Virus record (IMG/VR): IMGVR_UViG_3300048837_001975
Source of the DNA: a virus
DNA length: 45,512 bases
Strand: one strand, 5' to 3'
The notes below the pieces were generated by a model. The model was not told the origin of the DNA and ran no database searches. It was given only the letters and a program-made list of their open reading frames with translations. The translations under genes were made by a program, and so were the position numbers. Below, piece after piece: positions 1-45,512 of the stretch. The first letter of the stretch is position 1; the number at the start of each line of letters is the position of its first letter.

Positions 1-127
1 GTTATCAATTAAGGTTCCTTCCGCTCTTCAAGAACAAGCAGCCTATCATATTCTGCAGCGAGCATAGCTCCAGCAATTTCCAAACGTTTCTTGAAAGGTT
101 TTTTACATAGTCTATAAAACCATTCTT
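1..127. repeat. Terminal direct repeat, left copy. Identical to 45386-45512, indicating a circular or terminally redundant unit of about 45,385 bp.
   Basis: Base-by-base reading shows 1-127 equals 45386-45512. Confidence 0.95.
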
Positions 128-2364: not shown

Positions 2365-3090
2365 TTAAAAAATTACGGTTCTAATTGAATTTTTGAAATT
2401 GTACACCCTTTCAATATTATATATGTACAACTTTGGGCTTGCTTGTTTATCCATTTCGTTTGGAGCTTCAGAGATTTTTCTCTTCAGAACTTCAAAGTCG
2501 CAAAGTCCTTTGTCTTGTAATTTTTGAACGGCCATAATCAGGTTACGGTCATTCCAAAATTTATATCTATCAAAAAGTTTTCTTGTTAATTCTATTAACT
2601 GAGAACTTTCTTCAAAATAGTTTACTTTAAATTCTCCGTCTCTGAACTTATCCATCCCACCTTGTCCGGATGCAATTTTATAGAACATTAGTAGATCTAT
2701 TGAAACAGTATAAATTGTCTCATAGGTTTTCATAAATTCCTTCAGAATTTTATAATCTTCAACACCCAGACGGACATAACAGTCAAGAAAATCTTTACTG
2801 CCCCACTTATCGCTTCGTGAATTGAGCCTGGCAATCTGTTTTAAGTTTAATGGTTCACATTCTACATAGAATACAGGCTCTTCCAAACGAACGGAAGTTT
2901 CAAATCTATGTTGGCCATCTACTATTTTTAGTTTTCCATTTTCCGGATATACTATAATTGGACAATAAGGGAGCAGGTTCAAACCTTTATTAATGTCATC
3001 CATCAATCGCTCTACCTTTTTTTCATTGATAACCCGGTTCCCCAGGATAGTATCAAACTTTTCGTAATCTTTTGTTGTTTTAATTTCCAT
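2365..3090 (-). CDS. ParB/Sulfiredoxin-like N-terminal domain protein (DGQHR motif)
   Basis: The sequence KIVDGQHRFETSV is the ParB/Srx-type (DGQHR) phosphate-binding motif and sits in the expected N-terminal position. Confidence 0.7.
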   Translation of the reverse strand: MEIKTTKDYEKFDTILGNRVINEKKVERLMDDINKGLNLLPYCPIIVYPENGKLKIVDGQHRFETSVRLEEPVFYVECEPLNLKQIARLNSRSDKWGSKDFLDCYVRLGVEDYKILKEFMKTYETIYTVSIDLLMFYKIASGQGGMDKFRDGEFKVNYFEESSQLIELTRKLFDRYKFWNDRNLIMAVQKLQDKGLCDFEVLKRKISEAPNEMDKQASPKLYIYNIERVYNFKNSIRTVIF

Positions 3091-3550: not shown

Positions 3551-3726
3551 TTTAGTTTCAACACATCTACACCGTTGATTTTCAGTTAATTAATTCTTAA
3601 TTTGTGTTGAAATGGTTTGATTCTTAAAACAACTTCAAACACTTTCAAACCGTTTCAACACCTTTTTTTTTAATTCAATTTCTTCATTTTTAATAGTTTA
3701 TAGAATGTGTTGAAACGTTTGAAACT
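3551..3726. promoter_or_regulatory. Iteron cluster plus AT-rich tract: candidate replication origin or early regulatory region
   Basis: GTGTTGAAA(C/T) occurs four times: plus strand at 3604-3620 and 3707-3726, minus strand at 3645-3661 and 3551-3564. The first three extend to GTGTTGAAAYG(G)TTTGA. An A/T-rich tract (3661-3705) lies between them, and the cluster is immediately downstream of the primase-helicase gene. Confidence 0.5.
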
Positions 3727-6700
3727 CAAAACGGCAATTCGCCCCCGTCTTTATCATTGTTTTTTTCTTCAGGGGTTGCAGGGGACGGAAACAAAGAGTT
3801 TTCGTGCACCTGAAAATCTACAGCAAACTTGATCTCGTCAGAAATCGGGATCTGCTGAAGGTTTACCTGATAGGCGCTTGTAGCTTTGCTATCGCGCCCA
3901 GGAGCAAACCGAACCCCGGATATTGCATCTACCCACGCCTTGTCTTTTTTCAAGCTGTCCATCATCACGCCTTTTGCCGGAGCAGAATCCCTATACTGTA
4001 CATACCACTGCCTGGACACACGGTTGTAGCAGCTCGTAAAATTGAAGTAGAGATTGTCGCCCTCCAGCTTGAGATCCCTGCCAACTTTAATTTGGTCCGC
4101 AAGCGTTCCCCGCATCGATGCCAGGAAACAATCCCACCATCTATTAATGATGCTGGCCGTACTCATTTTATTCATCTGCAGTTCGATTGTTTTATCGAAA
4201 TGCGCCATCATTTCTACGTGGGTAAAAGGGAAGTGTACTTCCGGAACATTCTGAAACATTTGAAAGAAGGTTCCCAAAACCGAAAGGTTCGTGACCATAC
4301 GACTATTTGCCTCTTCATGTCGCTGTGAAAGCGTCGCTTTAAATTCCCTGAATTTAACTTTGAAATTATTTTTTACCGCTTCCCTATGGGCTAGAAATAC
4401 ATCCGTAAAACCGGATATCCCTTTTTTGTTCATATCGGCAAGTTTCTCATATTCCTTAATCTCAGCATCGTCAAAGCTTGTTTTGTCCATAAAATTCCAA
4501 ATCAATCGCGTGATCAATGCTTCCTGATCGGGCGCATAGTTGCCAGTCATAATTACGGACGAAAGAATCGGGATGCTTTCCGTACCCACGTGGCTATCTA
4601 TATTTCCACGTTTATAACCGCGACGGTCCCAAAGGCCTTTAAGAACACCGTCAAGTTTGGGATCTCCATTTTTATATTCCGAGAGCTGCGATATCGTATT
4701 TGCGAATTGAGCAAATTCCCGAACCTGTGCTTTAATGGTACTTACACCACCCTCAAGGTTGATTGCCGTTTGTGGATGGCCAAAAAAACTTTGGCAACAA
4801 TCGGCTAGAAGATCTTTTCCTGATGAAGCTGGTCCAAAAAGGAACAGCATTGGAAATGAATTGATTTGAGAAACAACTATATCCTGGAACATACTGGCCA
4901 CGGAAAATAAAATTCCCATCATTCCGTGGTTCCGGTGAACCTTAATTACTTGAGCAGCATAATTTTGAAAAGTCAGTTTCTCCGGAGAAATTGAAATCAA
5001 TTTCTTTTGTGCCTCAAATTTGTAAAGATTATTACGATAGATCTGGTTGGCTGATGGAACGTAATACATGACATCATCCTTTTCAAAAACTCCATTTTCA
5101 TCAATGGCAATTGGATCTTTTTTTGGTACGGTAATTTTATTGTTCCAAACCCAAAATCCTTCAGGTTGCCAACCAAGTACGTCAACCTTTCGGCCGGTGC
5201 CCATTCCATCAAATAAGTAAGTCTTTAGCAGTTCGTGTTCTTTGCGGCCACCCTTCCATCTAAAATTACCGTGCGCCGTAACCGCATTTTCAAATGCCTG
5301 AGGCGAATTCATATCTGCAGACTGCATATCAAAAATGCGCTCGAGATTATGAATGTTTTTTATGCGGACCAATTTCATTGGAAATTTTTCGTCCTGCATA
5401 TGCTGAATAATTTCAATGCTGAAATTAGAAACCGATCTAAAATGGTATGGCGGCCCTTCGTTACTTTGAACCCAAATTTGATTATTTGCCTGGAACATTT
5501 CGTATCTTTCGATTGTTGGGCGAAGCTTTTCAATGGGTTCTTTAATTCCTTCCGGAAGCTCATAAAAAGTATCTGGCTGCCACTTCACCTCAATTTCATT
5601 TATTTCGGCCTCCTTCATATACTTTTTAAGTTGGGTAACAGTTGTACTGCTTTCCTTGGCAAGCCATTTTAAGTACAGATCCTGCATTGAAACATCTTCA
5701 ATCTTTGCAATTATCTCTGTTAACTTTTTTGCCTCCTGTGCAATTCCTACGGCATCTTTATCCTTAAAAGAATGGTCCATTAAAAACTTAAATCCATCCT
5801 CCCGGTATGTTACTTTATCCAATTCCTTCAAACCTTCAGCTTGAATAGTTTTTTCATATAGACGGACAAAATCATCAGGATCTATTCCTGGTGTAAGCGC
5901 TACAATTTGAACACGGAATTGAAGCTTCATAAATTCAGGAATGTATTTCAGCATAGCTTTTATTCCGGCGGGATCCTGATCCAAACAAAAAACAATGCGA
6001 TCGCATAATTTTCTCAAAAGCTTCATTTGCTTTATAGCTATTGCTGTTCCACAGGATGCTATAGTATTTTTAATACCGTGTGTTTGCCAGGCAATCACAT
6101 CATTATATCCTTCAACCAACCAAGCTTCACCTTTTTTCACAATACTTTCCCTGGCTTCGTGAAGACCGTACCAAAAAGAATCTTTTTTGTAGAGCTCACT
6201 GTCTGAAGAATTGAGCCACTTGGCATACTTTTTATCGGTAGATAAACTACGCCCAGCAAGCCCCACAGGTAACAGGGAAGACCCTTTGCGCTCTATTAGG
6301 GGGTAGATTACACGATCTACCCACTTATCGGTATTTTTGTCTGATACAAGACCTATTTCCTGAGCATCCTTAACGCGGCCTTGTTCTTTGCACAGATTAT
6401 AAATAAACTGGTTACCGGGGGCGTAGCCAATTCTATATTCTTCCGCAATTTCTTTTGTGTATTTTCTTTTCCCGTAAACCTCCAGCTTTGCACGATGATC
6501 TTCCGGCAGTGCGTGGAACTGCTCTTCATATTTACGGATGGTAGCTTCCAAAAGTGGGCGCAGCGCTTCCCTTTTTTCCTGCTTTTCGTGATACAATTTT
6601 GCTTGTTGGCTATCCTCATATTCCAATTCAATGGAATATTTTCTTGCCAAAGTTTCAATGGCTTCAGGATATGTGCAACCGGTCCTCGCCATTACAAAAG

Positions 6701-6914
6701 ATATTGCTGAGTTGCCACCCTTACCGGATGAAAAATCTTTCCAAATACCTTTGGATGGAGAAACCATAAAGCTTCCGGACTGTTCATCAGTCCAGGGGGA
6801 AAGTCCTTTAAAGGTGGCACCTGATTTTTTTAGGTCCACATAGTCCCTAATTACTTCAACCAGGTCTGAAGCTTCCCAGATTTTTTCGATGATATCTTTT
6901 TTTATGAATGGCAT
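3726..6914 (-). CDS. DNA primase (DnaG-like N-terminus + TOPRIM) fused to a P-loop helicase/NTPase domain
   Basis: The N-terminus aligns to the CHC2 primase zinc-ribbon region, but all four ligand positions are substituted. TOPRIM signature: WLVEGYNDV ... CLDQDPAG. Walker A: LFGPASSGKD in the C-terminal half. Confidence 0.85.
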   Translation of the reverse strand: MPFIKKDIIEKIWEASDLVEVIRDYVDLKKSGATFKGLSPWTDEQSGSFMVSPSKGIWKDFSSGKGGNSAISFVMARTGCTYPEAIETLARKYSIELEYEDSQQAKLYHEKQEKREALRPLLEATIRKYEEQFHALPEDHRAKLEVYGKRKYTKEIAEEYRIGYAPGNQFIYNLCKEQGRVKDAQEIGLVSDKNTDKWVDRVIYPLIERKGSSLLPVGLAGRSLSTDKKYAKWLNSSDSELYKKDSFWYGLHEARESIVKKGEAWLVEGYNDVIAWQTHGIKNTIASCGTAIAIKQMKLLRKLCDRIVFCLDQDPAGIKAMLKYIPEFMKLQFRVQIVALTPGIDPDDFVRLYEKTIQAEGLKELDKVTYREDGFKFLMDHSFKDKDAVGIAQEAKKLTEIIAKIEDVSMQDLYLKWLAKESSTTVTQLKKYMKEAEINEIEVKWQPDTFYELPEGIKEPIEKLRPTIERYEMFQANNQIWVQSNEGPPYHFRSVSNFSIEIIQHMQDEKFPMKLVRIKNIHNLERIFDMQSADMNSPQAFENAVTAHGNFRWKGGRKEHELLKTYLFDGMGTGRKVDVLGWQPEGFWVWNNKITVPKKDPIAIDENGVFEKDDVMYYVPSANQIYRNNLYKFEAQKKLISISPEKLTFQNYAAQVIKVHRNHGMMGILFSVASMFQDIVVSQINSFPMLFLFGPASSGKDLLADCCQSFFGHPQTAINLEGGVSTIKAQVREFAQFANTISQLSEYKNGDPKLDGVLKGLWDRRGYKRGNIDSHVGTESIPILSSVIMTGNYAPDQEALITRLIWNFMDKTSFDDAEIKEYEKLADMNKKGISGFTDVFLAHREAVKNNFKVKFREFKATLSQRHEEANSRMVTNLSVLGTFFQMFQNVPEVHFPFTHVEMMAHFDKTIELQMNKMSTASIINRWWDCFLASMRGTLADQIKVGRDLKLEGDNLYFNFTSCYNRVSRQWYVQYRDSAPAKGVMMDSLKKDKAWVDAISGVRFAPGRDSKATSAYQVNLQQIPISDEIKFAVDFQVHENSLFPSPATPEEKNNDKDGGELPF

Positions 6915-7054: not shown

Positions 7055-7197
7055 ATTGATAGCTTTTCAATTTCACTTAAAATGGGCGCACACAACTTTT
7101 TCTTTTCCTCAGGTGTGAACAAATCACTTTCCTGGTATTGCTTTAGGTTTGCCCGTAGCAGGTTTAGTTTTGATTGGGTTGGGGTTTCGGGGGTCAT
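7051..7197 (-). CDS. Small hypothetical protein (48 aa, MTPETPTQSKLNLLRANLKQ...)
   Basis: Hand-translated ATG ORF with ATGA junctions at both ends (7194-7197 and 7051-7054). Confidence 0.4.
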   Translation of the reverse strand: MTPETPTQSKLNLLRANLKQYQESDLFTPEEKKKLCAPILSEIEKLSI

Positions 7198-7604
7198 TCT
7201 ATTTCCTCTAAATCATTAGTTGTTTCAAAAAATGTTTTCATTTTGAGTAGATCATCAAGGTTGAATGATTTTCTCTTTAGTCTTCCCTTTATTTGCTTCT
7301 TGGTTAATTCAACCCCGAACAAATCAAAATTTACATCTGCATCATCGAAGTCATAAGCTTCACCAGTTTCCAACCATTGATATTTTTTCTTAAATAAGTA
7401 AAGAAGGGTTAATTCAGCCTGGTATTTTTCTCCATCGAAAAAACCCACACAATCCGCAGCTGTAATATCCAAGAGATAAAGCTTGTCTTCCAGCGTCATG
7501 CTTTTTACCTTTTCAAGAAAAAGCATTTGAGTATCGTTGAAATAATGCGTGATTGCATTATTATCTAGATAGCTATCTTCCCGATCGTCTAACCATTTTC
7601 CCAT
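7194..7604 (-). CDS. Acidic hypothetical protein (136 aa from the ATG at 7604; the track ORF extends to a TTG at 7679)
   Basis: The first ATG (MGKWLDDRED) is preceded by an A/T-rich stretch. The TTG-extended version would translate through a tRNA-like T-arm. Confidence 0.55.
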   Translation of the reverse strand: MGKWLDDREDSYLDNNAITHYFNDTQMLFLEKVKSMTLEDKLYLLDITAADCVGFFDGEKYQAELTLLYLFKKKYQWLETGEAYDFDDADVNFDLFGVELTKKQIKGRLKRKSFNLDDLLKMKTFFETTNDLEEIE

Positions 7605-7884
7605 ATTAAAATTTTTATTTCGCCAAACGCTTGGAATCGAACCAAGAACAGGGTTCAGCAATTGCTTGTTATGTATCAAGCAAAAGGTTCAGCCTGTTTC
7701 CGGAGCATCTCTCCTTATGCTCCCGTTTGTTTGACCAGGTGGGGTTCCTATCAGTCCCCGGCCAAAGTCTGGAATGTTATTAACCGTGTCGCATTACCAT
7801 CCACGTCTTGGGGGATGTTTGGTAGTCTGCTATACTTTGGCAGACCCAGAGCCCCTACTATTCACCAGTATTCCCTTTAACCGT
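7605..7884 (-). ncRNA. Candidate structured RNA or 5-prime leader containing a tRNA-like cloverleaf
   Basis: No ATG ORF. Visibly richer in G+C than the flanks (not computed). At least 8 helices can be drawn by eye, including the minus-strand T-arm CTTGG-TTCGATT-CCAAG (7630-7646). Confidence 0.4.
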
Positions 7885-8133
7885 TTATTCGTAAGTAATT
7901 GTGATACCTGCACCTGAGCGCTTTAGTTGATAAGCGTGCGGTATGCCGTTGTACTGCTTATGCTCCTGGAGCTTCCGCAAATGGTGCTCGTTTAATGGTT
8001 CCTTTACGTGGCAGCTTACTTCAGTAAAGCGGCCATCGTCATCAGGTCCTTTGGTTTTGTTTGTGCCTTTGTCTCCAAAGATCTCAGCGAAACCGCGCTG
8101 GATTTTCTGCATGTTTTCTCTTGAAATTGCCAT
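7885..8133 (-). CDS. Hypothetical protein (82 aa)
   Basis: ATG ORF and first gene after the terminator at 8165-8200. Confidence 0.55.
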   Translation of the reverse strand: MAISRENMQKIQRGFAEIFGDKGTNKTKGPDDDGRFTEVSCHVKEPLNEHHLRKLQEHKQYNGIPHAYQLKRSGAGITITYE

Positions 8134-8164: not shown

Positions 8165-8200
8165 TTTTTAAAAACCGCCCAGCTCCTCAGCCGGGCGGGC
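8165..8200 (-). terminator. Rho-independent terminator after the LuxR-type regulator gene
   Basis: On the minus strand, a 10-bp GC-rich stem (CCGCCCGGCT / AGCTGGGCGG, one G-U pair) with a GAGG loop is followed by TTTTT. Confidence 0.7.
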
Positions 8201-8272
8201 ATTAATAACCTAAAAAAACCTATTTCAATTAAGAAAAAAGGGTAATTGAAAGAACGTAGCGTGTAGGGCGAA

Positions 8273-9194: not shown

Positions 9195-9219
9195 AGCGTT
9201 CTAATTTGTTCCAAATGTA

Positions 9220-9283: not shown

Positions 9284-9607
9284 ATGGGAGTAGGGAAAAA
9301 GTTGAAGTTTCTTATCAAGCAAAAAGGGATATCGCAACGCCAATTTGCTGATAACATTGAGGAAAACATAACTCAAGTAAACAAAGTGCTCAACGAGGAG
9401 CGAACACCTAATTATGAATTTTTAGTAAAGGCACTTACCTATTTCGGCGAAGTAGATTTGAATTGGCTGCTGCGCGATGACTATGCCCTGGATGCTCCCA
9501 TTCCAAAAGTGGATGAAAATAGAGCTGCATATTCTGTAGATGTCATACAGGACATCACTGAAATTGAAGAAATAATTACTCGTTTGAAGCAAAAAGTGTC
9601 ACAATAA
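9284..9607 (+). CDS. XRE-family HTH regulator (CI-like repressor candidate)
   Basis: LKFLIKQKGISQRQFADNIEENITQVNKVLNEERTP is a classic XRE helix-turn-helix. The gene sits next to the integrase and is divergent from the early operon. Confidence 0.8.
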   Translation: MGVGKKLKFLIKQKGISQRQFADNIEENITQVNKVLNEERTPNYEFLVKALTYFGEVDLNWLLRDDYALDAPIPKVDENRAAYSVDVIQDITEIEEIITRLKQKVSQ

Positions 9608-9767
9608 TGACACACGATTATTATAAATAACCTGATAATTAACCTGTTAACTATTGTGTAGGAATCCCTCCGCGGTCACTAATAACCTAAATACCTATTA
9701 ATAAGGGAAAGCAGGTACCTGAAAATCAAGTACCTGCATTTTCAATTAATTTAAACTAACAGGTATT
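9608..9767. other. attP region with a tRNA 3-prime-end-like core and arm-type repeats
   Basis: GAATCCCTCCGCGGTCAC (9662-9679) reads as T-loop 3-prime half, T-stem, acceptor strand and discriminator of a tRNA. It is flanked by (A/T)TAACCT(G/A) repeats (9627, 9639, 9682) and the inverted repeat GCAGGTAC/GTACCTGC (9711-9737). The region is directly upstream of int. Confidence 0.5.
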
Positions 9768-10955
9768 ATGGTTGCCCAAGAAGCTATTTTTGACACAAGA
9801 GTTGACACAAAGAAATTGTTTGTGTCAGTAAAAACTAAATTCATTCCACGCAGTTATCAAAATAAGGAAGGCCTTTCACTTCTTTATCTACACATTACCG
9901 GTAATCAACAGCGAAATAGAATTCCCCTGGATATATATGTAAGGGTGAAAGATTTTTGCCCGAAAGAGCAAAGGCTAAAGACTACCGATGGCCACTCAAA
10001 GGATCTCAATCTAATTATTGATAACCTGCAGAGTAAAATCACTTCTATTAAAACAACCTATCGACTAGCCAATAAAAAATTGGACGTCGATTCGCTTACT
10101 GAAGAATTTATAAATGGCATTCCACGAATCAATTTTTTTGCATTTGCAGATTGGTTCCTTCAAAAACAAAAAGGACAGCTCGCGAAAGGCACCTATGAAA
10201 AGCAGTATTATATGCTGGAAAAATGGAAACGCTGGAAGAAAACCATTTACTTCACAGAACTTGACCAAAAATTTATCTTGAACTTCCGGCAGTGGATGAA
10301 TAAGCTAGGAAACAATAAAACTACTGTTGAAAGCAATATTGCAACACTAAAAAAGTTTTTAAATGCCGCAAAAAAACACGGGATTTTATTGCCAATTGAT
10401 GTTGATGATATTAAGGTAGGCAGTACCACGGGCAACAGAACGGACTTAAAACCATCTGAGGTAAACCGCCTGTATGAATATTATAAAAGCAGCTTTATAA
10501 ATGACCAGAACCGCCTAGTGCTTGGCTACTTTCTCTTTTCTTGTTTTACTGGGCTTCGTGTTTCCGAAGTATTGTCAATCCATCGCAGTCAATTTGATGA
10601 AGGTTTTTTTGAATATTTTGAAAAGAAAAAAGATAGAATGCAGCGTAGAAACATAAACGAAAGTACCAGGACACTACTTTCTTATTGTGATGGGCTTTTC
10701 ATTGAAAAGAAAGATCCTATCTATATGAACCGTCAAATAAAAATAATAGCCAACACCTGTGGAATAACAAAGAAAATTTCATTCCACGTTGGCCGACATA
10801 CATTTGCTACCAACTTCCTAAGAGCTGGAGGCGATGTAGTATCGCTCCAAAATCTTTTAGGGCACAGCAATATAAAGCAGACTATGATCTACGTTCACAT
10901 TGTGGAGAGCGAGGTAAACGAAAAGGTTTTTATAATAGACAAATTATTCAATTGA
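9768..10955 (+). CDS. int: Tyrosine site-specific integrase
   Basis: Catalytic-domain signatures are TGLRVSEVLSI, HVGRHTFATNFL, LLGHSNIKQTMIYVHI (R...HxxR...H...Y). The N-terminal arm/SAM-like domain is typical of Bacteroidetes phage integrases. Confidence 0.9.
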   Translation: MVAQEAIFDTRVDTKKLFVSVKTKFIPRSYQNKEGLSLLYLHITGNQQRNRIPLDIYVRVKDFCPKEQRLKTTDGHSKDLNLIIDNLQSKITSIKTTYRLANKKLDVDSLTEEFINGIPRINFFAFADWFLQKQKGQLAKGTYEKQYYMLEKWKRWKKTIYFTELDQKFILNFRQWMNKLGNNKTTVESNIATLKKFLNAAKKHGILLPIDVDDIKVGSTTGNRTDLKPSEVNRLYEYYKSSFINDQNRLVLGYFLFSCFTGLRVSEVLSIHRSQFDEGFFEYFEKKKDRMQRRNINESTRTLLSYCDGLFIEKKDPIYMNRQIKIIANTCGITKKISFHVGRHTFATNFLRAGGDVVSLQNLLGHSNIKQTMIYVHIVESEVNEKVFIIDKLFN

Positions 10956-27294: not shown

Positions 27295-27669
27295 ATGGAA
27301 ACACAAAGTAAAGAATTAACGCCAGTACAACAGAAACGCCAAGCCTTGAGAGAAATTTCAAAAGTGGCTAAAATGATGCTTCAATCCGAAGCGATGGAAG
27401 AAGAGAACGTTAACGAAATCGTGATTAATCACTTCTACACAAACGACACGCACCAAGAATTTAAAAGCTTCAAAGGTTGGATGAAAGCAGGATTTGCAGT
27501 AAAGAAAGGTGAAAAGGCTTTTTGTATCTGGGGAAAGCCAAGAGATAAAAAAGAAACCGACCCCCAAGAGGAAAACGAGGAACAGGGCAAAAAATCTAAA
27601 TTTTACCCTTTAGCCTACATTTTCAGCAATGCGCAAGTTGAACCCCTAAAAAAGAAAGAAAGTGCCTAA
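27295..27669 (+). CDS. ArdC N-terminal-domain-like (DUF1738) ssDNA-binding protein; lacks the metalloprotease half
   Basis: EFKSFKGWMKAGFAVKKGEKAFCIWGKP ... FYPLAYIFSNAQVEPL matches the ArdC-N pattern (F..W...G..VkKGEKg..i ... vFN..Q). Confidence 0.6.
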   Translation: METQSKELTPVQQKRQALREISKVAKMMLQSEAMEEENVNEIVINHFYTNDTHQEFKSFKGWMKAGFAVKKGEKAFCIWGKPRDKKETDPQEENEEQGKKSKFYPLAYIFSNAQVEPLKKKESA

Positions 27670-28318
27670 AACAAGAGATATACCACAGGATTTGAGGGAA
27701 TTTAATTCCCTCTTTTCCTTTATAGCAATGCGCCACGATGCCGCGCGCGTCTTCGACGATTTTCTAACCCTTGTTATTTGTGTGCTCGCACGACAAACAC
27801 AAGAGGACTGGTACCTCAGTACCATAAGAAAATACAGCGAAGACGAGATAAATAGATTTCCCAAAATGCTGGGCAGTTTGTTCATTATTTATGAAAACGC
27901 CCGCAGAGCGGGAGAATGGACAGACCCTCTCGGCTCTTTTTATGAAGCCATTGCCGGCAACTATAAAAAAAGTGGCCTAGGGCAATTCTTCACTCCTGAA
28001 GCGATTTGCACAATGTGCGCCCAAATGATTATTCCAAAAGGAACTTTCGGAAAGAATATCAACGAACCCACCTGCGGTAGTGGCCGTATGATATTGGCAA
28101 CCCACATACACGCTCCCGGTAACTACTATGTAGCACAGGATATGGACCATATATGCGTGAAAATGACTTGCATAAACTTGGCAATGCACGGCGTAAAGGC
28201 AGAAGTCCATCACATGGACACCCTGCAGAATAATACGCCTTGGAATAGCTACATAATTAACCACGACTATTGGAAAACAAAAACGCCATTCGTCTATAAA
28301 ATCAACGAAGGAGATTAA
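27662..28318 (+). CDS. Truncated HsdM-like (gamma-class N6-adenine MTase-like) SAM-binding protein with degenerate motif IV
   Basis: GQFFTPEAICTMCAQMI (motif X), INEPTCGSGRMIL (motif I), CINLAMHGV ... HMDTL are present. The NPPF/Y position reads IINHDYW, and the protein ends 17 aa later. Confidence 0.65.
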   Translation: MPKTRDIPQDLREFNSLFSFIAMRHDAARVFDDFLTLVICVLARQTQEDWYLSTIRKYSEDEINRFPKMLGSLFIIYENARRAGEWTDPLGSFYEAIAGNYKKSGLGQFFTPEAICTMCAQMIIPKGTFGKNINEPTCGSGRMILATHIHAPGNYYVAQDMDHICVKMTCINLAMHGVKAEVHHMDTLQNNTPWNSYIINHDYWKTKTPFVYKINEGD

Positions 28319-45340: not shown

Positions 45341-45393
45341 TTGATAACAGTTGCTATAAGCCATTGAAACGGCTCATAGCTTGGTGTTATCAA
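45341..45393. terminator. Long imperfect hairpin between convergent genes (45057-45242 and the circular copy of 9-413)
   Basis: TTGATAACA ... TGTTATCAA outer arms and GCTATAAGCC ... GGCTCATAGC inner arms. It spans the start of the terminal repeat. Confidence 0.5.
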
Positions 45394-45512
45394 TTAAGGT
45401 TCCTTCCGCTCTTCAAGAACAAGCAGCCTATCATATTCTGCAGCGAGCATAGCTCCAGCAATTTCCAAACGTTTCTTGAAAGGTTTTTTACATAGTCTAT
45501 AAAACCATTCTT
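45386..45512. repeat. Terminal direct repeat, right copy (identical to 1-127)
   Basis: Base-by-base identity with 1-127. Confidence 0.95.

What the first reader, a model, noticed from the sequence alone, without database searches (positions are those of the whole stretch)
7605..7884. ORF-poor, highly structured island with a tRNA-like cloverleaf (perfect T-arm) in the early operon
Between two minus-strand genes lies about 280 nt with no ATG-initiated ORF. Only a TTG-start extension of the 7194 gene reaches 7679. The stretch is visibly more G+C-rich than its surroundings.

On the minus strand I can draw these helices:
- GGAGCAT/ATGCTCC (7702-7723), with loop AAGGAGAG
- AACAGG/CCTGTT (7647-7698), enclosing TTGCTTG/CAAGCAA (7662-7683)
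- CTTGG-TTCGATT-CCAAG (7630-7646), which is a canonical tRNA T-stem and T-loop
- an acceptor-like pairing of ACAAACG with CGTTTGG (7724-7730 with 7623-7629; 6 of 7 pairs)

Together these form a four-way junction of about 108 nt. One arm carries a GG-containing D-like loop that could contact the T-loop. Upstream, 7731-7884 has further stems: GTCTGC/GCAGAC, GGGG/CCCC twice, and CCAAG/CTTTGG.

It is not a canonical tRNA: there is no 7-nt anticodon loop, the arms are oversized and no CCA is encoded. Possible roles are a tRNA mimic (a decoy for anticodon nucleases or tRNA-targeting defences, or an integrase-related tRNA fragment) or a structured leader controlling the acidic 136-aa protein downstream.
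Basis: partly seen in the sequence, partly recalled or inferred. Interest (0 to 1): 0.75.

Follow-up and report, generated by a model that had tools for sequence, protein, structure and literature searches.

The report
Phage tRNA-shaped RNA without an anticodon
A small group of marine Flavobacteriaceae temperate phages carries, right after an orphan 82-residue protein gene, a strongly conserved non-coding sequence that folds like a tRNA but has no anticodon; it matches no catalogued RNA family and what it does is still unknown.

Summary
The drawn structure is real. Window 7623-7730 (minus strand) folds into the four-way junction described, with a canonical T arm (MFE z = -3.9).

It is not a tRNA:
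- ARAGORN and Rfam 15 give no hit.
- Relaxed ARAGORN assigns a different "anticodon" in each homologue.
- The arm at the anticodon position keeps a constant stem, but its loop is 4, 5, 5, 8 or 42 nt long.

It is non-coding and constrained. Identity to distant homologues is 77-88%, against 36-55% at synonymous sites of flanking genes. Consensus folding favours the sense strand.

It is not attP. An integrated prophage keeps the element intact, and the junction with host DNA maps to about window 9685. No tRNA gene in 185,579 species genomes shares its 3' half.

It is not a leader for the 136-aa gene, because the downstream genes differ between homologues. Instead it always follows an orphan 82-aa protein gene: 7 of 7 variants carry both, and the other related loci fetched (about 95 in all) carry neither. 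The two form an accessory cassette.

The 150-nt 5' domain is present in five variants, absent in one, and one variant is a truncated remnant.

Best guess (inferred): host tRNA-processing enzymes recognise and cut out a non-decoding tRNA mimic.

Main weakness: only seven variants exist, and covariation is not significant.

The parts
7623..7730 (-). Core tRNA-like four-way junction: acceptor-like stem, D-like arm, arm at the anticodon position, T arm. This is the module conserved in all six full-length variants.
   Evidence: MFE z = -3.9. CM R1 built on it finds all variants at 68-105 bits. In L099 it occurs alone, 14 nt after the stop codon of the upstream gene.
7724..7730 (-). The alternative register GUCAAAC is 7729-7735.
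   Evidence: ACAAACGGGAGC is invariant in six variants. The registers differ by 0-4 kcal/mol. In L099 the alternative 5' strand has two mismatches.
7702..7723 (-). D-like arm: a 7-bp stem (5 bp in L085 and L099) with a variable 8-11-nt loop.
   Evidence: One U-A to A-U double change and two G-C to G-U changes.
7647..7698 (-). Arm at the anticodon position. The 6-bp stem AACAGG/CCUGUU is conserved. The apical part is hypervariable: here a 40-nt insert (7653-7692) with a CUGAAC direct repeat on either side of a 7-bp hairpin.
   Evidence: Loops of 4 (L083), 5 (L085, L099), 8 (L001) and 42 nt (window, L002).
7630..7646 (-). T arm: CUUGG-UUCGAUU-CCAAG (5 bp, 7-nt loop, G53-C61 equivalent).
   Evidence: Invariant in all six full variants, including L099, which was found through a protein and not through this sequence.
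7622..7629 (-). Acceptor-like 3' strand CGUUUGGC. No CCA is encoded. The next base is G or A.
7736..7884 (-). 5' domain of about 150 nt. It contains several hairpins (CGGU/ACUG; GGGG...CCCC enclosing GUCUGC/GCAGAC; CGUG/CACG; GGGG/CCCC) and invariant unpaired stretches (AAGACGUG, ACGGUUAAUAACA). It is an optional accessory to the core.
   Evidence: Present in the window, L001, L002, L083 and L085; absent in L099 and L092. Changes that keep the pairs: GGGG/CCCC to GGAG/CUCC, and U-A to U-G to C-G. In L085 the inner hairpin is replaced by an unrelated hairpin.
7611..7621 (-). A/U-rich tail between the acceptor-like 3' strand and the start codon of the next gene (ATG at 7602-7604).
7885..8133 (-). 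p82, an orphan 82-aa protein gene whose stop codon abuts the element. It is the element's constant partner.
   Evidence: tblastn finds the family only in loci that carry the element: 7 distinct variants, always directly upstream (one extra ORF intervenes in L002). AF2 pLDDT 89, alpha-beta-beta-alpha-beta-beta. No Pfam, PHROG or PDB assignment.
8175..8198 (-). Context: strong intrinsic-terminator-like hairpin between the 188-aa regulator gene and p82.
   Evidence: 10-bp stem, 8 G-C pairs, T5.
9212..9219 (-). Context: the only Bacteroidetes-type -7 box (TAnnTTTG) on the minus strand between 2908 and 9219. It lies just upstream of the first early gene.
   Evidence: The consensus itself is from my own knowledge of Bacteroidetes promoters.

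Best explanation
The element is a non-decoding, tRNA-shaped RNA. It forms a two-part accessory cassette with the orphan gene p82 in the early operon of a narrow clade of temperate Flavobacteriaceae phages.

Shown:
- It is non-coding and under purifying selection.
- It folds on the sense strand into an acceptor-like stem, a D-like arm, an arm with no anticodon loop and a canonical T arm.
- The core is separable from an optional 150-nt structured 5' domain.
- It is neither attP nor tied to the downstream gene.

Inferred:
- It is transcribed as part of the early mRNA.
- Its coaxial acceptor/T-arm minihelix is the determinant read by RNase P, RNase Z, the CCA-adding enzyme and the T-loop modification enzymes. 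Host tRNA-maturation enzymes would therefore cut the transcript here.
- Cutting would give the p82 message a defined, structured 3' end, start the downstream message at a short A-rich leader, and release a stable 75-110-nt tRNA mimic.

Speculative:
- The released mimic, alone or with p82, occupies a host factor that binds tRNA through the acceptor/T-arm face.
For: - Structure: MFE z = -3.9. Consensus fold z = -3.8 to -4.9 and SCI 0.81-0.85 on the sense strand, against -2.7 to -3.3 and 0.71-0.82 on the antisense strand. 94-98% of cells are paired in the tRNA-like domain.
- Non-coding: stops in every sense frame. The antisense open frame needs frameshifts in L083 and is broken in L085.
- Constraint: nucleotide identity of 0.88, 0.77 and 0.98 to L083, L085 and L002. 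Identity at four-fold sites of flanking genes is 0.55, 0.47 and 0.49. The stretch CUGUUCUUGGUUCGAUUCCAAGCGUUUGGC is invariant even in L099, which was reached through a protein.
- Variation falls in the two apical loops.
- Cassette: p82 and the element co-occur 7 of 7 times and in no other related locus.
- No minus-strand -7 box between 9212 and the element. No terminator follows it.
[quoted passage not shown] M. smegmatis YrlA, a tRNA-like RNA with a 7-bp acceptor, is cut by RNase P and receives CCA (PMC4201824).
Against: - There are no expression or processing data.
- Covariation is not significant: one double change in the core, and 195-252 of 500 shuffles score as well.
- Conservation is mostly sequence invariance, which a DNA-level role or recent recombination could also produce.
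- The closing helix is ambiguous. Four alternative partners for CGUUUGGC lie within 0-5 kcal/mol of each other.
- The best-conserved register has a terminal A.G mismatch and no linker to the D-like stem. The other register has a bulged C at the T-stem junction. Either could impair RNase P recognition.
- There is no U8 and no variable loop, and the D-loop GG is absent in L085.
- L092 keeps only a mutated 3' remnant, so the fold is dispensable in at least one lineage.
Confidence: 0.42

Rival explanations
1. It is a purely cis-acting structured intercistronic or 3'-UTR element of the p82 message. It would protect against 3' exonucleases or modulate ribosome or RNA polymerase passage. On this view the T loop is only a common RNA tertiary-structure module, and tRNA enzymes play no part.
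For: - Strict linkage to the 3' end of p82.
- Position inside an operon with no promoter or terminator of its own.
- T-loop motifs occur in many non-tRNA RNAs (established knowledge).
- The near-isoenergetic alternative pairings of four similar segments (GGUUAAAG, CUUUGGCC, GGUCAAAC, GUUUGGC) resemble a switch.
Against: - A simple stabiliser would not need an invariant 34-nt T-arm and acceptor strand plus a full four-way junction across lineages whose synonymous sites are saturated.
- The alternative pairings need the 5' domain, which L099 lacks.
Confidence: 0.2
2. The feature acts at the DNA level. It would be a conserved linker that promotes exchange of neighbouring gene modules by homologous recombination, or a protein-binding, priming or replication site. 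The RNA fold would be incidental or a relic.
For: - Sharp boundaries, with unrelated genes downstream of an almost identical element.
- Conservation is invariance rather than covariation.
- The element lies about 700 nt upstream of the primase gene.
Against: - Relatives whose primase or regulator is 71-81% identical to the window's lack the element entirely, so it is not an essential origin or early-operon site.
- G-U pairs and the consensus-fold statistics favour one strand.
- The stems are kept through U-A to U-G to C-G, G-C to A-U and U-A to A-U changes, and through replacement of a whole hairpin.
Confidence: 0.1
3. It is a decaying phage tRNA gene (pseudogene) with no present function.
For: - Overall tRNA size (73-75 nt in L001 and L083) and a perfect T arm.
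- L092 is a truncated copy with a T-stem mutation.
- Other distant relatives carry odd tRNA-like sequences.
Against: - It is far more conserved than neutral sites in flanking genes.
- The stems are preserved in all six full copies, and changes are confined to loops.
Confidence: 0.07
4. It is a structured leader that regulates the downstream acidic 136-aa protein (7194-7604).
For: It ends 7-17 nt before that gene's ATG.
Against: The downstream gene is different in L001, L002/L083, L085 and L099, while the element is retained. No relative of the 136-aa protein was found next to any other copy.
Confidence: 0.03
5. It is the phage attachment site, or an integrase-related fragment of a host tRNA gene.
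For: - The phage is temperate, with an integrase at 9768-10955.
- Many relatives have T-loop fragments at prophage ends.
Against: - The integrated prophage L083/L094 has host genes (HAD hydrolase, RadC, DUF1569) directly after the repressor gene and keeps the element intact.
- Homology to the window stops at about window 9685.
- The 21-mer covering the T loop and acceptor strand matches no tRNA gene in 185,579 species genomes.
Confidence: 0.01
6. It is protein-coding, either as the TTG-start extension of the 7194 gene or as the 72-aa antisense ORF at 7662-7880.
For: Open frames exist in the window.
Against: The frames are not conserved. L083 needs two frameshifts, L085 has stops in all antisense frames, and the sense frames hold 3-8 stops.
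Confidence: 0.02

Closest known systems
Canonical tRNA (Rfam RF00005)
   Same: Four-way junction of tRNA size (73-75 nt in the short-arm variants). A 5-bp T stem with UUCGAUU loop and closing G-C pair. A 6-7-bp acceptor-like stem stacked on the T arm.
   Different: No 7-nt anticodon loop, no U33 and no conserved anticodon. D-like stem of 5-7 bp. No variable loop, no U8 and no encoded CCA. Not detected by ARAGORN or any Rfam model.
YrlA / bacterial Y RNAs (tRNA-like domain; PMC4201824)
   Same: A non-decoding bacterial or phage RNA that imitates the acceptor, D and T arms. One member is cut by RNase P and receives CCA.
   Different: In YrlA the RNA ends form the Ro-binding stem at the anticodon position, and the 'acceptor' is a closed hairpin. 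Here the ends are at the acceptor. No Ro60/TROVE gene is present in the phage.
mascRNA (MALAT1) and gammaherpesvirus TMER tRNA-like units (from my own knowledge)
   Same: Non-aminoacylated tRNA-like structures embedded in a longer transcript. RNase P and RNase Z cleavage there defines the ends of the flanking RNAs. In MALAT1 a structured element just upstream stabilises the new 3' end, which is an analogy for the 150-nt 5' domain.
   Different: Those are eukaryotic or animal-virus systems with no sequence relation. Processing has not been shown here.
tmRNA tRNA-like domain
   Same: Acceptor stem plus T arm without an anticodon arm. It works with a small dedicated protein (SmpB).
   Different: No tag reading frame, no G3:U70 and no pseudoknot ring. 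The tRNA-like part is contiguous here. ARAGORN tmRNA mode finds nothing. p82 shows no similarity to SmpB.
3' tRNA-like structures of plant RNA viruses
   Same: A viral RNA element that imitates the acceptor/T-arm face of tRNA, preceded by a structured upstream domain.
   Different: Those sit at a genomic RNA 3' end, finish in CCA, use a pseudoknotted acceptor and are aminoacylated. This element is internal to a DNA-phage operon.

Membership tests
Canonical tRNA | 5-bp T stem and 7-nt T loop (UUCRANY) closed by G53-C61 | tested here: met
   CUUGG-UUCGAUU-CCAAG at 7630-7646. Invariant in six variants.
Canonical tRNA | 7-bp acceptor stem formed by the two ends and stacked directly on the T stem | tested here: inconclusive
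MFE register: 7 of 7 pairs with a bulged C. The two lie within 0-4 kcal/mol of each other, and further partners for the 3' strand exist.
Canonical tRNA | 7-nt anticodon loop with U33 and an anticodon conserved among orthologues | tested here: not met
   Loops of 4, 5, 5, 8 and 42 nt. Relaxed ARAGORN calls Ser, Cys or Asn depending on the variant.
Canonical tRNA | D stem of 3-4 bp, U8, variable loop of at least 4 nt | tested here: not met
   D-like stem of 5-7 bp. AAA or no linker in place of U8-N9. Zero nucleotides between the third arm and the T stem.
Canonical tRNA | Recognised by tRNA gene finders or covariance models | tested here: not met
   ARAGORN at default settings finds nothing in the window, L001, L002, L083 or L085. 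Rfam at gathering threshold and at E <= 10 gives no hit on the element.
YrlA / bacterial Y RNA | Encoded next to a Ro60 (TROVE) gene | tested here: not met
   No TROVE family among 54 window ORFs scanned against Pfam.
YrlA / bacterial Y RNA | RNA ends form the Ro-binding stem at the anticodon position; acceptor-like arm closed by a loop | tested here: not met
   The arm at the anticodon position is a closed hairpin and the ends are at the acceptor-like stem. Topology of YrlA taken from PMC4201824.
tmRNA | Tag-peptide reading frame, G3:U70, detection by ARAGORN tmRNA mode | tested here: not met
   ARAGORN -m finds nothing even at 80% thresholds. The acceptor has C3-G70 or U3-G70.
attP / tRNA-gene fragment | Identity with the 3' part of a host tRNA gene | tested here: not met
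   GGTTCGATTCCAAGCGTTTGG in 185,579 species genomes gives two copies of the element and two chance matches that are not tRNAs.
attP / tRNA-gene fragment | Split into attL and attR in the integrated prophage | tested here: not met
   The element is intact in L083, L094 and L095, which are flanked by host genes. The junction maps to about window 9685.
RNase P/Z-processed tRNA-like punctuation elements (mascRNA/TMER type) | Acceptor/T-arm minihelix embedded in a longer transcript | tested here: met
   No promoter box or terminator separates it from its neighbours.
RNase P/Z-processed tRNA-like punctuation elements (mascRNA/TMER type) | Actual cleavage by RNase P and RNase Z | not testable with these tools
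   Needs RNA-end mapping or in-vitro cleavage.
Cis-regulatory leader / riboswitch of the downstream gene | Conserved association with one downstream gene family and an expression platform (terminator or start-site sequestering helix) | tested here: not met
   Four or more unrelated downstream genes. No terminator after the element.

The most novel reading that the evidence does not exclude
p82 and the tRNA-shaped RNA are a dedicated phage ribonucleoprotein or decoy. The RNA would be excised and given a CCA end (perhaps even aminoacylated). It would then bind a host factor that reads the acceptor/T-arm face of tRNA, for example a tRNA-targeting immune nuclease or nucleotidyltransferase toxin, or a translation or stress factor. 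That would protect the phage early in infection. If so, this would be a bacteriophage counterpart of viral tRNA mimicry and of RNA-based anti-defence.
Probability: 0.15. Interest if true: 0.85.

Novelty: new variant of a known kind. Interest (0 to 1): 0.55.

Why it matters
Phage tRNA genes are now discussed mainly as replacements for host tRNAs destroyed by immune nucleases. A conserved phage RNA that keeps the tRNA body and its processing and recognition face, but has discarded the anticodon, cannot decode. It must work by being recognised as a tRNA.

That would make it one of very few bacterial or phage tRNA mimics besides tmRNA and YrlA. It comes with a private orphan protein and, in most copies, a large structured 5' domain.

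If processing is confirmed, it would also be a clear case of tRNA-style punctuation of a phage operon.

The cassette is small and separable, and it is present or absent among otherwise similar prophages, so it is well suited to direct genetic testing.

Tried and rejected
- ARAGORN (default, intron, tmRNA and mitochondrial modes; relaxed thresholds). Nothing at default settings, and inconsistent calls when relaxed.
- Rfam at gathering threshold on the window, and at E <= 10 on the region and on three homologous loci. Nothing on the element.
- blastn against 50,697 phage records. No match.
- Four exact or degenerate DNA patterns in IMG/VR. Only two contigs.
- One metagenome pattern. Only copies identical to those two.
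- Search for the 136-aa downstream protein in IMG/VR. No relatives.
- 80 primase-related viral loci scanned with nhmmer and CM R1. The element is present only in the 96%-identity relative.
- Covariation counts on 5 and 6 sequences. Not significant.
- p82 function. Pfam, PHROGs and a PDB sequence profile gave nothing. Foldseek against PDB gave only designed alpha/beta proteins and weak LAGLIDADG-like matches (TM about 0.57, E about 0.1). BFVD's best match was an uncharacterised Winogradskyella phage protein. I do not regard the LAGLIDADG resemblance as established.
- Bacteroidetes -7 box search. No site next to the element.
- Attempt to decide the closing helix by constrained folding. The alternatives are too close in energy.
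- The attP, leader-of-136-aa-gene and coding hypotheses were considered and rejected on comparative evidence (see the rival explanations).
Full report
WHAT THE WINDOW IS

The window is a complete, circularly assembled genome: bases 1-127 repeat at 45386-45512. It corresponds to JGI contig Ga0498920_0002139.

It is a temperate phage of the Bacteroidetes type:
- a tyrosine integrase with an Arm-DNA-bind_5 domain at 9768-10955 (+);
- an HTH repressor-like gene at 9284-9607 (+);
- a divergent minus-strand early operon running through a 113-aa gene, a 188-aa LuxR-like regulator (phrog_10300), an 82-aa orphan gene (7885-8133, here called p82), the interval in question, small ORFs and a 1062-aa primase (3726-6914).

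The closest cultured relatives by primase are Flavobacterium psychrophilum phages 1H, 2A and 6H, at 44% identity. Copies of the element occur in an Aequorivita MAG and a Flavobacteriales MAG and in TARA ocean samples.

Folding 7615-7735(-) without constraints gives a four-way junction made of the same D-like, long and T hairpins. The energy is -39.1 kcal/mol against -25.9 +/- 3.4 for dinucleotide shuffles (z = -3.9). The T-loop motif GGTTCRANTCC occurs once in the genome, where 0.1 occurrences are expected.

Taken as a whole, the 280-nt interval is not thermodynamically exceptional (z = -1.4). Its G+C content exceeds the downstream gene's but not that of p82.

IT IS NOT A KNOWN RNA AND NOT A tRNA

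ARAGORN finds no tRNA or tmRNA in the window or in the homologous loci. Rfam 15 gives nothing at gathering thresholds over the whole window. It also gives nothing on the element at E <= 10 in four variants.

With thresholds lowered to 80%, ARAGORN produces mutually inconsistent calls: Ser-tga, Cys-aca and Asn-gtt.

The arm at the anticodon position keeps a 6-bp stem, AACAGG/CCUGUU. Its apex differs between variants:
- CUUG in L083;
- UUUAU in L085;
- CCUUA in L099;
- CCCAUACC in L001;
- a 42-nt stretch containing an extra hairpin flanked by a CUGAAC repeat in the window and L002.

So there is no anticodon. In addition, the D-like stem is 5-7 bp, there is no variable loop and no U8, and CCA is not encoded.

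HOMOLOGUES

The searches recovered seven distinct variants:
- the window;
- L002 (identical to L087 and L089);
- L001 (identical to L003 and L088);
- L083 (identical to L094 and L095);
- L085;
- L099;
- the remnant L092.

They came from exact and degenerate DNA patterns in the viral, metagenome and genome collections, and from contigs encoding homologues of the 188-aa regulator. All loci were then screened with nhmmer and with covariance model R1 of the tRNA-like domain.

Eighty loci related through the primase contain the element only where the primase is 96% identical. Relatives whose regulator is 60-78% identical to the window's lack it.

NON-CODING AND CONSTRAINED

Every sense frame carries 3-8 stops. 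The antisense 72-91-codon open frame seen in three near-identical variants needs two frameshifts in L083 and is interrupted in all frames in L085.

The TTG extension of the 7194 gene cannot be real, because that gene is replaced by unrelated genes in the homologues.

Element identity to the window, compared with identity at four-fold sites of identical residues in flanking genes (all):

| Comparison | Element | Primase | Regulator |
|---|---|---|---|
| L083 | 0.88 | 0.55 | 0.51 |
| L085 | 0.77 | 0.47 | 0.36 |
| L002 | 0.98 | not computed | 0.49 |

L083 and L085 were found with a 21-mer taken from the element, which inflates their identity slightly. L099 and L092 were reached through a protein, and they still carry CUGUUCUUGGUUCGAUUCCAAGCGUUUGGC unchanged or with one change. 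This rules out a freely decaying pseudogene.

STRUCTURE SUPPORT AND ITS LIMITS

Consensus folding of the alignment was compared with column-shuffled controls, using various subsets of sequences:

| Strand | z | Structure conservation index |
|---|---|---|
| Sense | -3.8 to -4.9 | 0.81-0.85 |
| Antisense | -2.7 to -3.3 | 0.71-0.82 |

Several changes keep the pairs:
- U-A to A-U in the D-like stem;
- GGGG/CCCC to GGAG/CUCC in the 5' domain;
- U-A to U-G to C-G in the 5' domain;
- several G-C to G-U changes;
- in L085, replacement of a whole inner hairpin by an unrelated one inside the same closing stem.

However, formal covariation counts on 5-6 sequences cannot be distinguished from shuffles (195-252 of 500). 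The structure is therefore supported by thermodynamics, by conservation of foldability and by the pattern of variation. It is not supported by statistically significant covariation.

The closing helix is unresolved. The 3' strand CGUUUGGC can pair with four partners: GUCAAAC, ACAAACG, CCAGAC/CCAAGC, or GUUAAA at the 5' end of the element. The total energies lie within 0-5 kcal/mol of each other in every variant.

ANATOMY ACROSS VARIANTS

The conserved core is the tRNA-like junction, 7623-7730.
- In L099 it stands alone, 14 nt after the stop codon of the p82 homologue.
- In five variants a 150-nt 5' domain (7736-7884) fills the space from the p82 stop codon to the core. It contains several hairpins and invariant unpaired stretches (AAGACGUG, ACGGUUAAUAACA).
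- In L092 only the third arm, a T arm with a G-to-U change in the stem, and the 3' strand remain, fused to the stop codon. That copy is a decaying remnant.

NOT attP

In L083, and in the same prophage on the 77-kb TARA scaffold L094, the repressor gene is followed not by the integrase but by DUF1569, RadC, DUF7033 and HAD-hydrolase genes. Alignment with the window is almost perfect up to about window 9685 and then stops.

The attachment site therefore lies between the repressor and integrase genes. The element is intact 1.7 kb inside the integrated prophage.

L092 likewise sits in a 260-kb bacterial contig next to glutamine synthetase III.

The scan of 185,579 species genomes for the T-loop-to-acceptor 21-mer returned no tRNA gene.

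NOT A LEADER FOR THE DOWNSTREAM GENE; LINKED TO p82 INSTEAD

The genes downstream of the element are unrelated among variants.

tblastn with four p82-family members against all 108 loci held finds the family only where the element is present. It is always directly upstream, except in L002 where one extra ORF intervenes.

Because close relatives lack both, the pair is an accessory cassette. It is not an origin, an antitermination site or any other essential early-operon signal.

p82 is predicted with confidence (pLDDT 89) as alpha-beta-beta-alpha-beta-beta. It has no family assignment. Its only structural matches are generic ones or weak LAGLIDADG-like ones.

The phage encodes no Ro60, RtcB, synthetase or CCA enzyme among the 54 ORFs scanned.

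TRANSCRIPTION CONTEXT

The only Bacteroidetes-type -7 box on the minus strand of the early region is at 9212-9219, ahead of the first early gene (the consensus is from my own knowledge). A strong terminator-like hairpin lies at 8175-8198, between the regulator gene and p82.

No terminator follows the element, and the next start codon is 7-17 nt beyond it. The element is therefore most simply read as an internal part of a polycistronic RNA. How transcription passes the hairpin at 8175-8198 is not known.

MECHANISM (INFERENCE)

The invariant parts are exactly the acceptor-like strands, the junction and the T arm. The variable parts are the two distal loops.

The stacked acceptor/T-arm helix is what RNase P, RNase Z, the CCA-adding enzyme and the T-loop modification enzymes read (established knowledge). 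A bacterial tRNA-like Y RNA with a 7-bp acceptor is cut by RNase P and receives CCA in vivo (PMC4201824).

I therefore consider it most likely (about 0.4) that host tRNA-maturation enzymes cut the early transcript at the element. This would define a structured 3' end for the p82 message and release a stable, non-decoding tRNA mimic.

Whether that mimic has a target of its own, or works with p82, is speculation. Its accessory nature, its early position and the presence of other anti-defence genes in the phage (ArdC-N at 27295-27669, a Tad2-like domain) are compatible with a counter-defence role. The lack of an anticodon loop argues against a decoy for anticodon nucleases in particular.

VERDICT

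This is a real, conserved, non-coding, tRNA-shaped element that is not in Rfam. It represents a new variant of the known theme of tRNA mimicry, and it is packaged with an orphan protein.

The evidence base is thin: seven variants, no significant covariation and no expression data. Interest is moderate.

Noticed in passing
window 9660-9690: Probable attP core. Homology between the circular phage and the integrated prophage L083 ends after GGAATCCCTCCGCGGTCAC(T/G)AAT, in the spacer between the repressor and integrase genes. ARAGORN finds no tRNA at the junction in L083.
   Followed up: partly
window 1-127 and 45386-45512: Perfect 127-nt terminal direct repeat. The contig is a circular assembly of a 45,385-bp genome.
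   Followed up: yes
window 8175-8198 (-): Strong intrinsic-terminator-like hairpin inside the early operon, between the 188-aa regulator gene and p82. The genes beyond it, including the primase, need read-through or an unrecognised promoter. The sequence just downstream (AAAAAGTAACTCAAGTTTAATTTAATACA) is nearly identical in L099.
   Followed up: no
window 7885-8133 (-): Orphan 82-aa protein confidently predicted as alpha-beta-beta-alpha-beta-beta. It has weak topological resemblance to a LAGLIDADG half-domain (I-DmoI, TM 0.57, E about 0.1). The best viral match is an uncharacterised Winogradskyella phage Peternella_1 protein.
   Followed up: partly
window 7653-7692 (-): The long arm of the window and L002 looks like an insertion: a 7-bp hairpin (UUGCUUG/CAAGCAA) bracketed by a direct repeat of CUGAAC. 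The other variants have a 4-8-nt loop at that place.
   Followed up: partly
L092:6933-6977: Truncated remnant of the element (third arm, T arm with a G-to-U change in the stem, and CGUUUGGC) fused to the stop codon of a p82 homologue. It lies in a prophage on a 260-kb bacterial contig.
   Followed up: partly
L070:1094-1178 and L039:~2440-2575: Distant primase relatives carry other tRNA-like sequences on the early-operon strand that ARAGORN does not call at default settings. L070 has a GGGGAGU/ACUCUCC acceptor with G3:U70, a normal D arm and T arm, but a disrupted anticodon region.
   Followed up: no
L010-L082 (about 30 loci), strand opposite the primase: GGTTCGAGTCC or GGTTCAAATCC T-loop fragments, many within 30-170 nt of a contig end. 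They are probably att sites of relatives that integrate into tRNA genes, unlike the window's lineage.
   Followed up: no
window 27295-28318 (+), 2365-3090 (-), and one unlocated ORF: Likely anti-defence or defence cargo: an ArdC N-terminal domain protein (27295-27669), an N6 DNA methylase (27662-28318), a weak GmrSD_N-like protein (2365-3090), and a Tad2-like (Thoeris anti-defence) domain in one of the 44 ORFs scanned together. A PLD-like domain was also found.
   Followed up: partly
window 8195-8214 and 9672-9691: A 20-nt direct repeat (GCGGGCATTAATAACCTAAA / GCGGTCACTAATAACCTAAA). One copy overlaps the terminator hairpin and the other overlaps the probable attP core.
   Followed up: no
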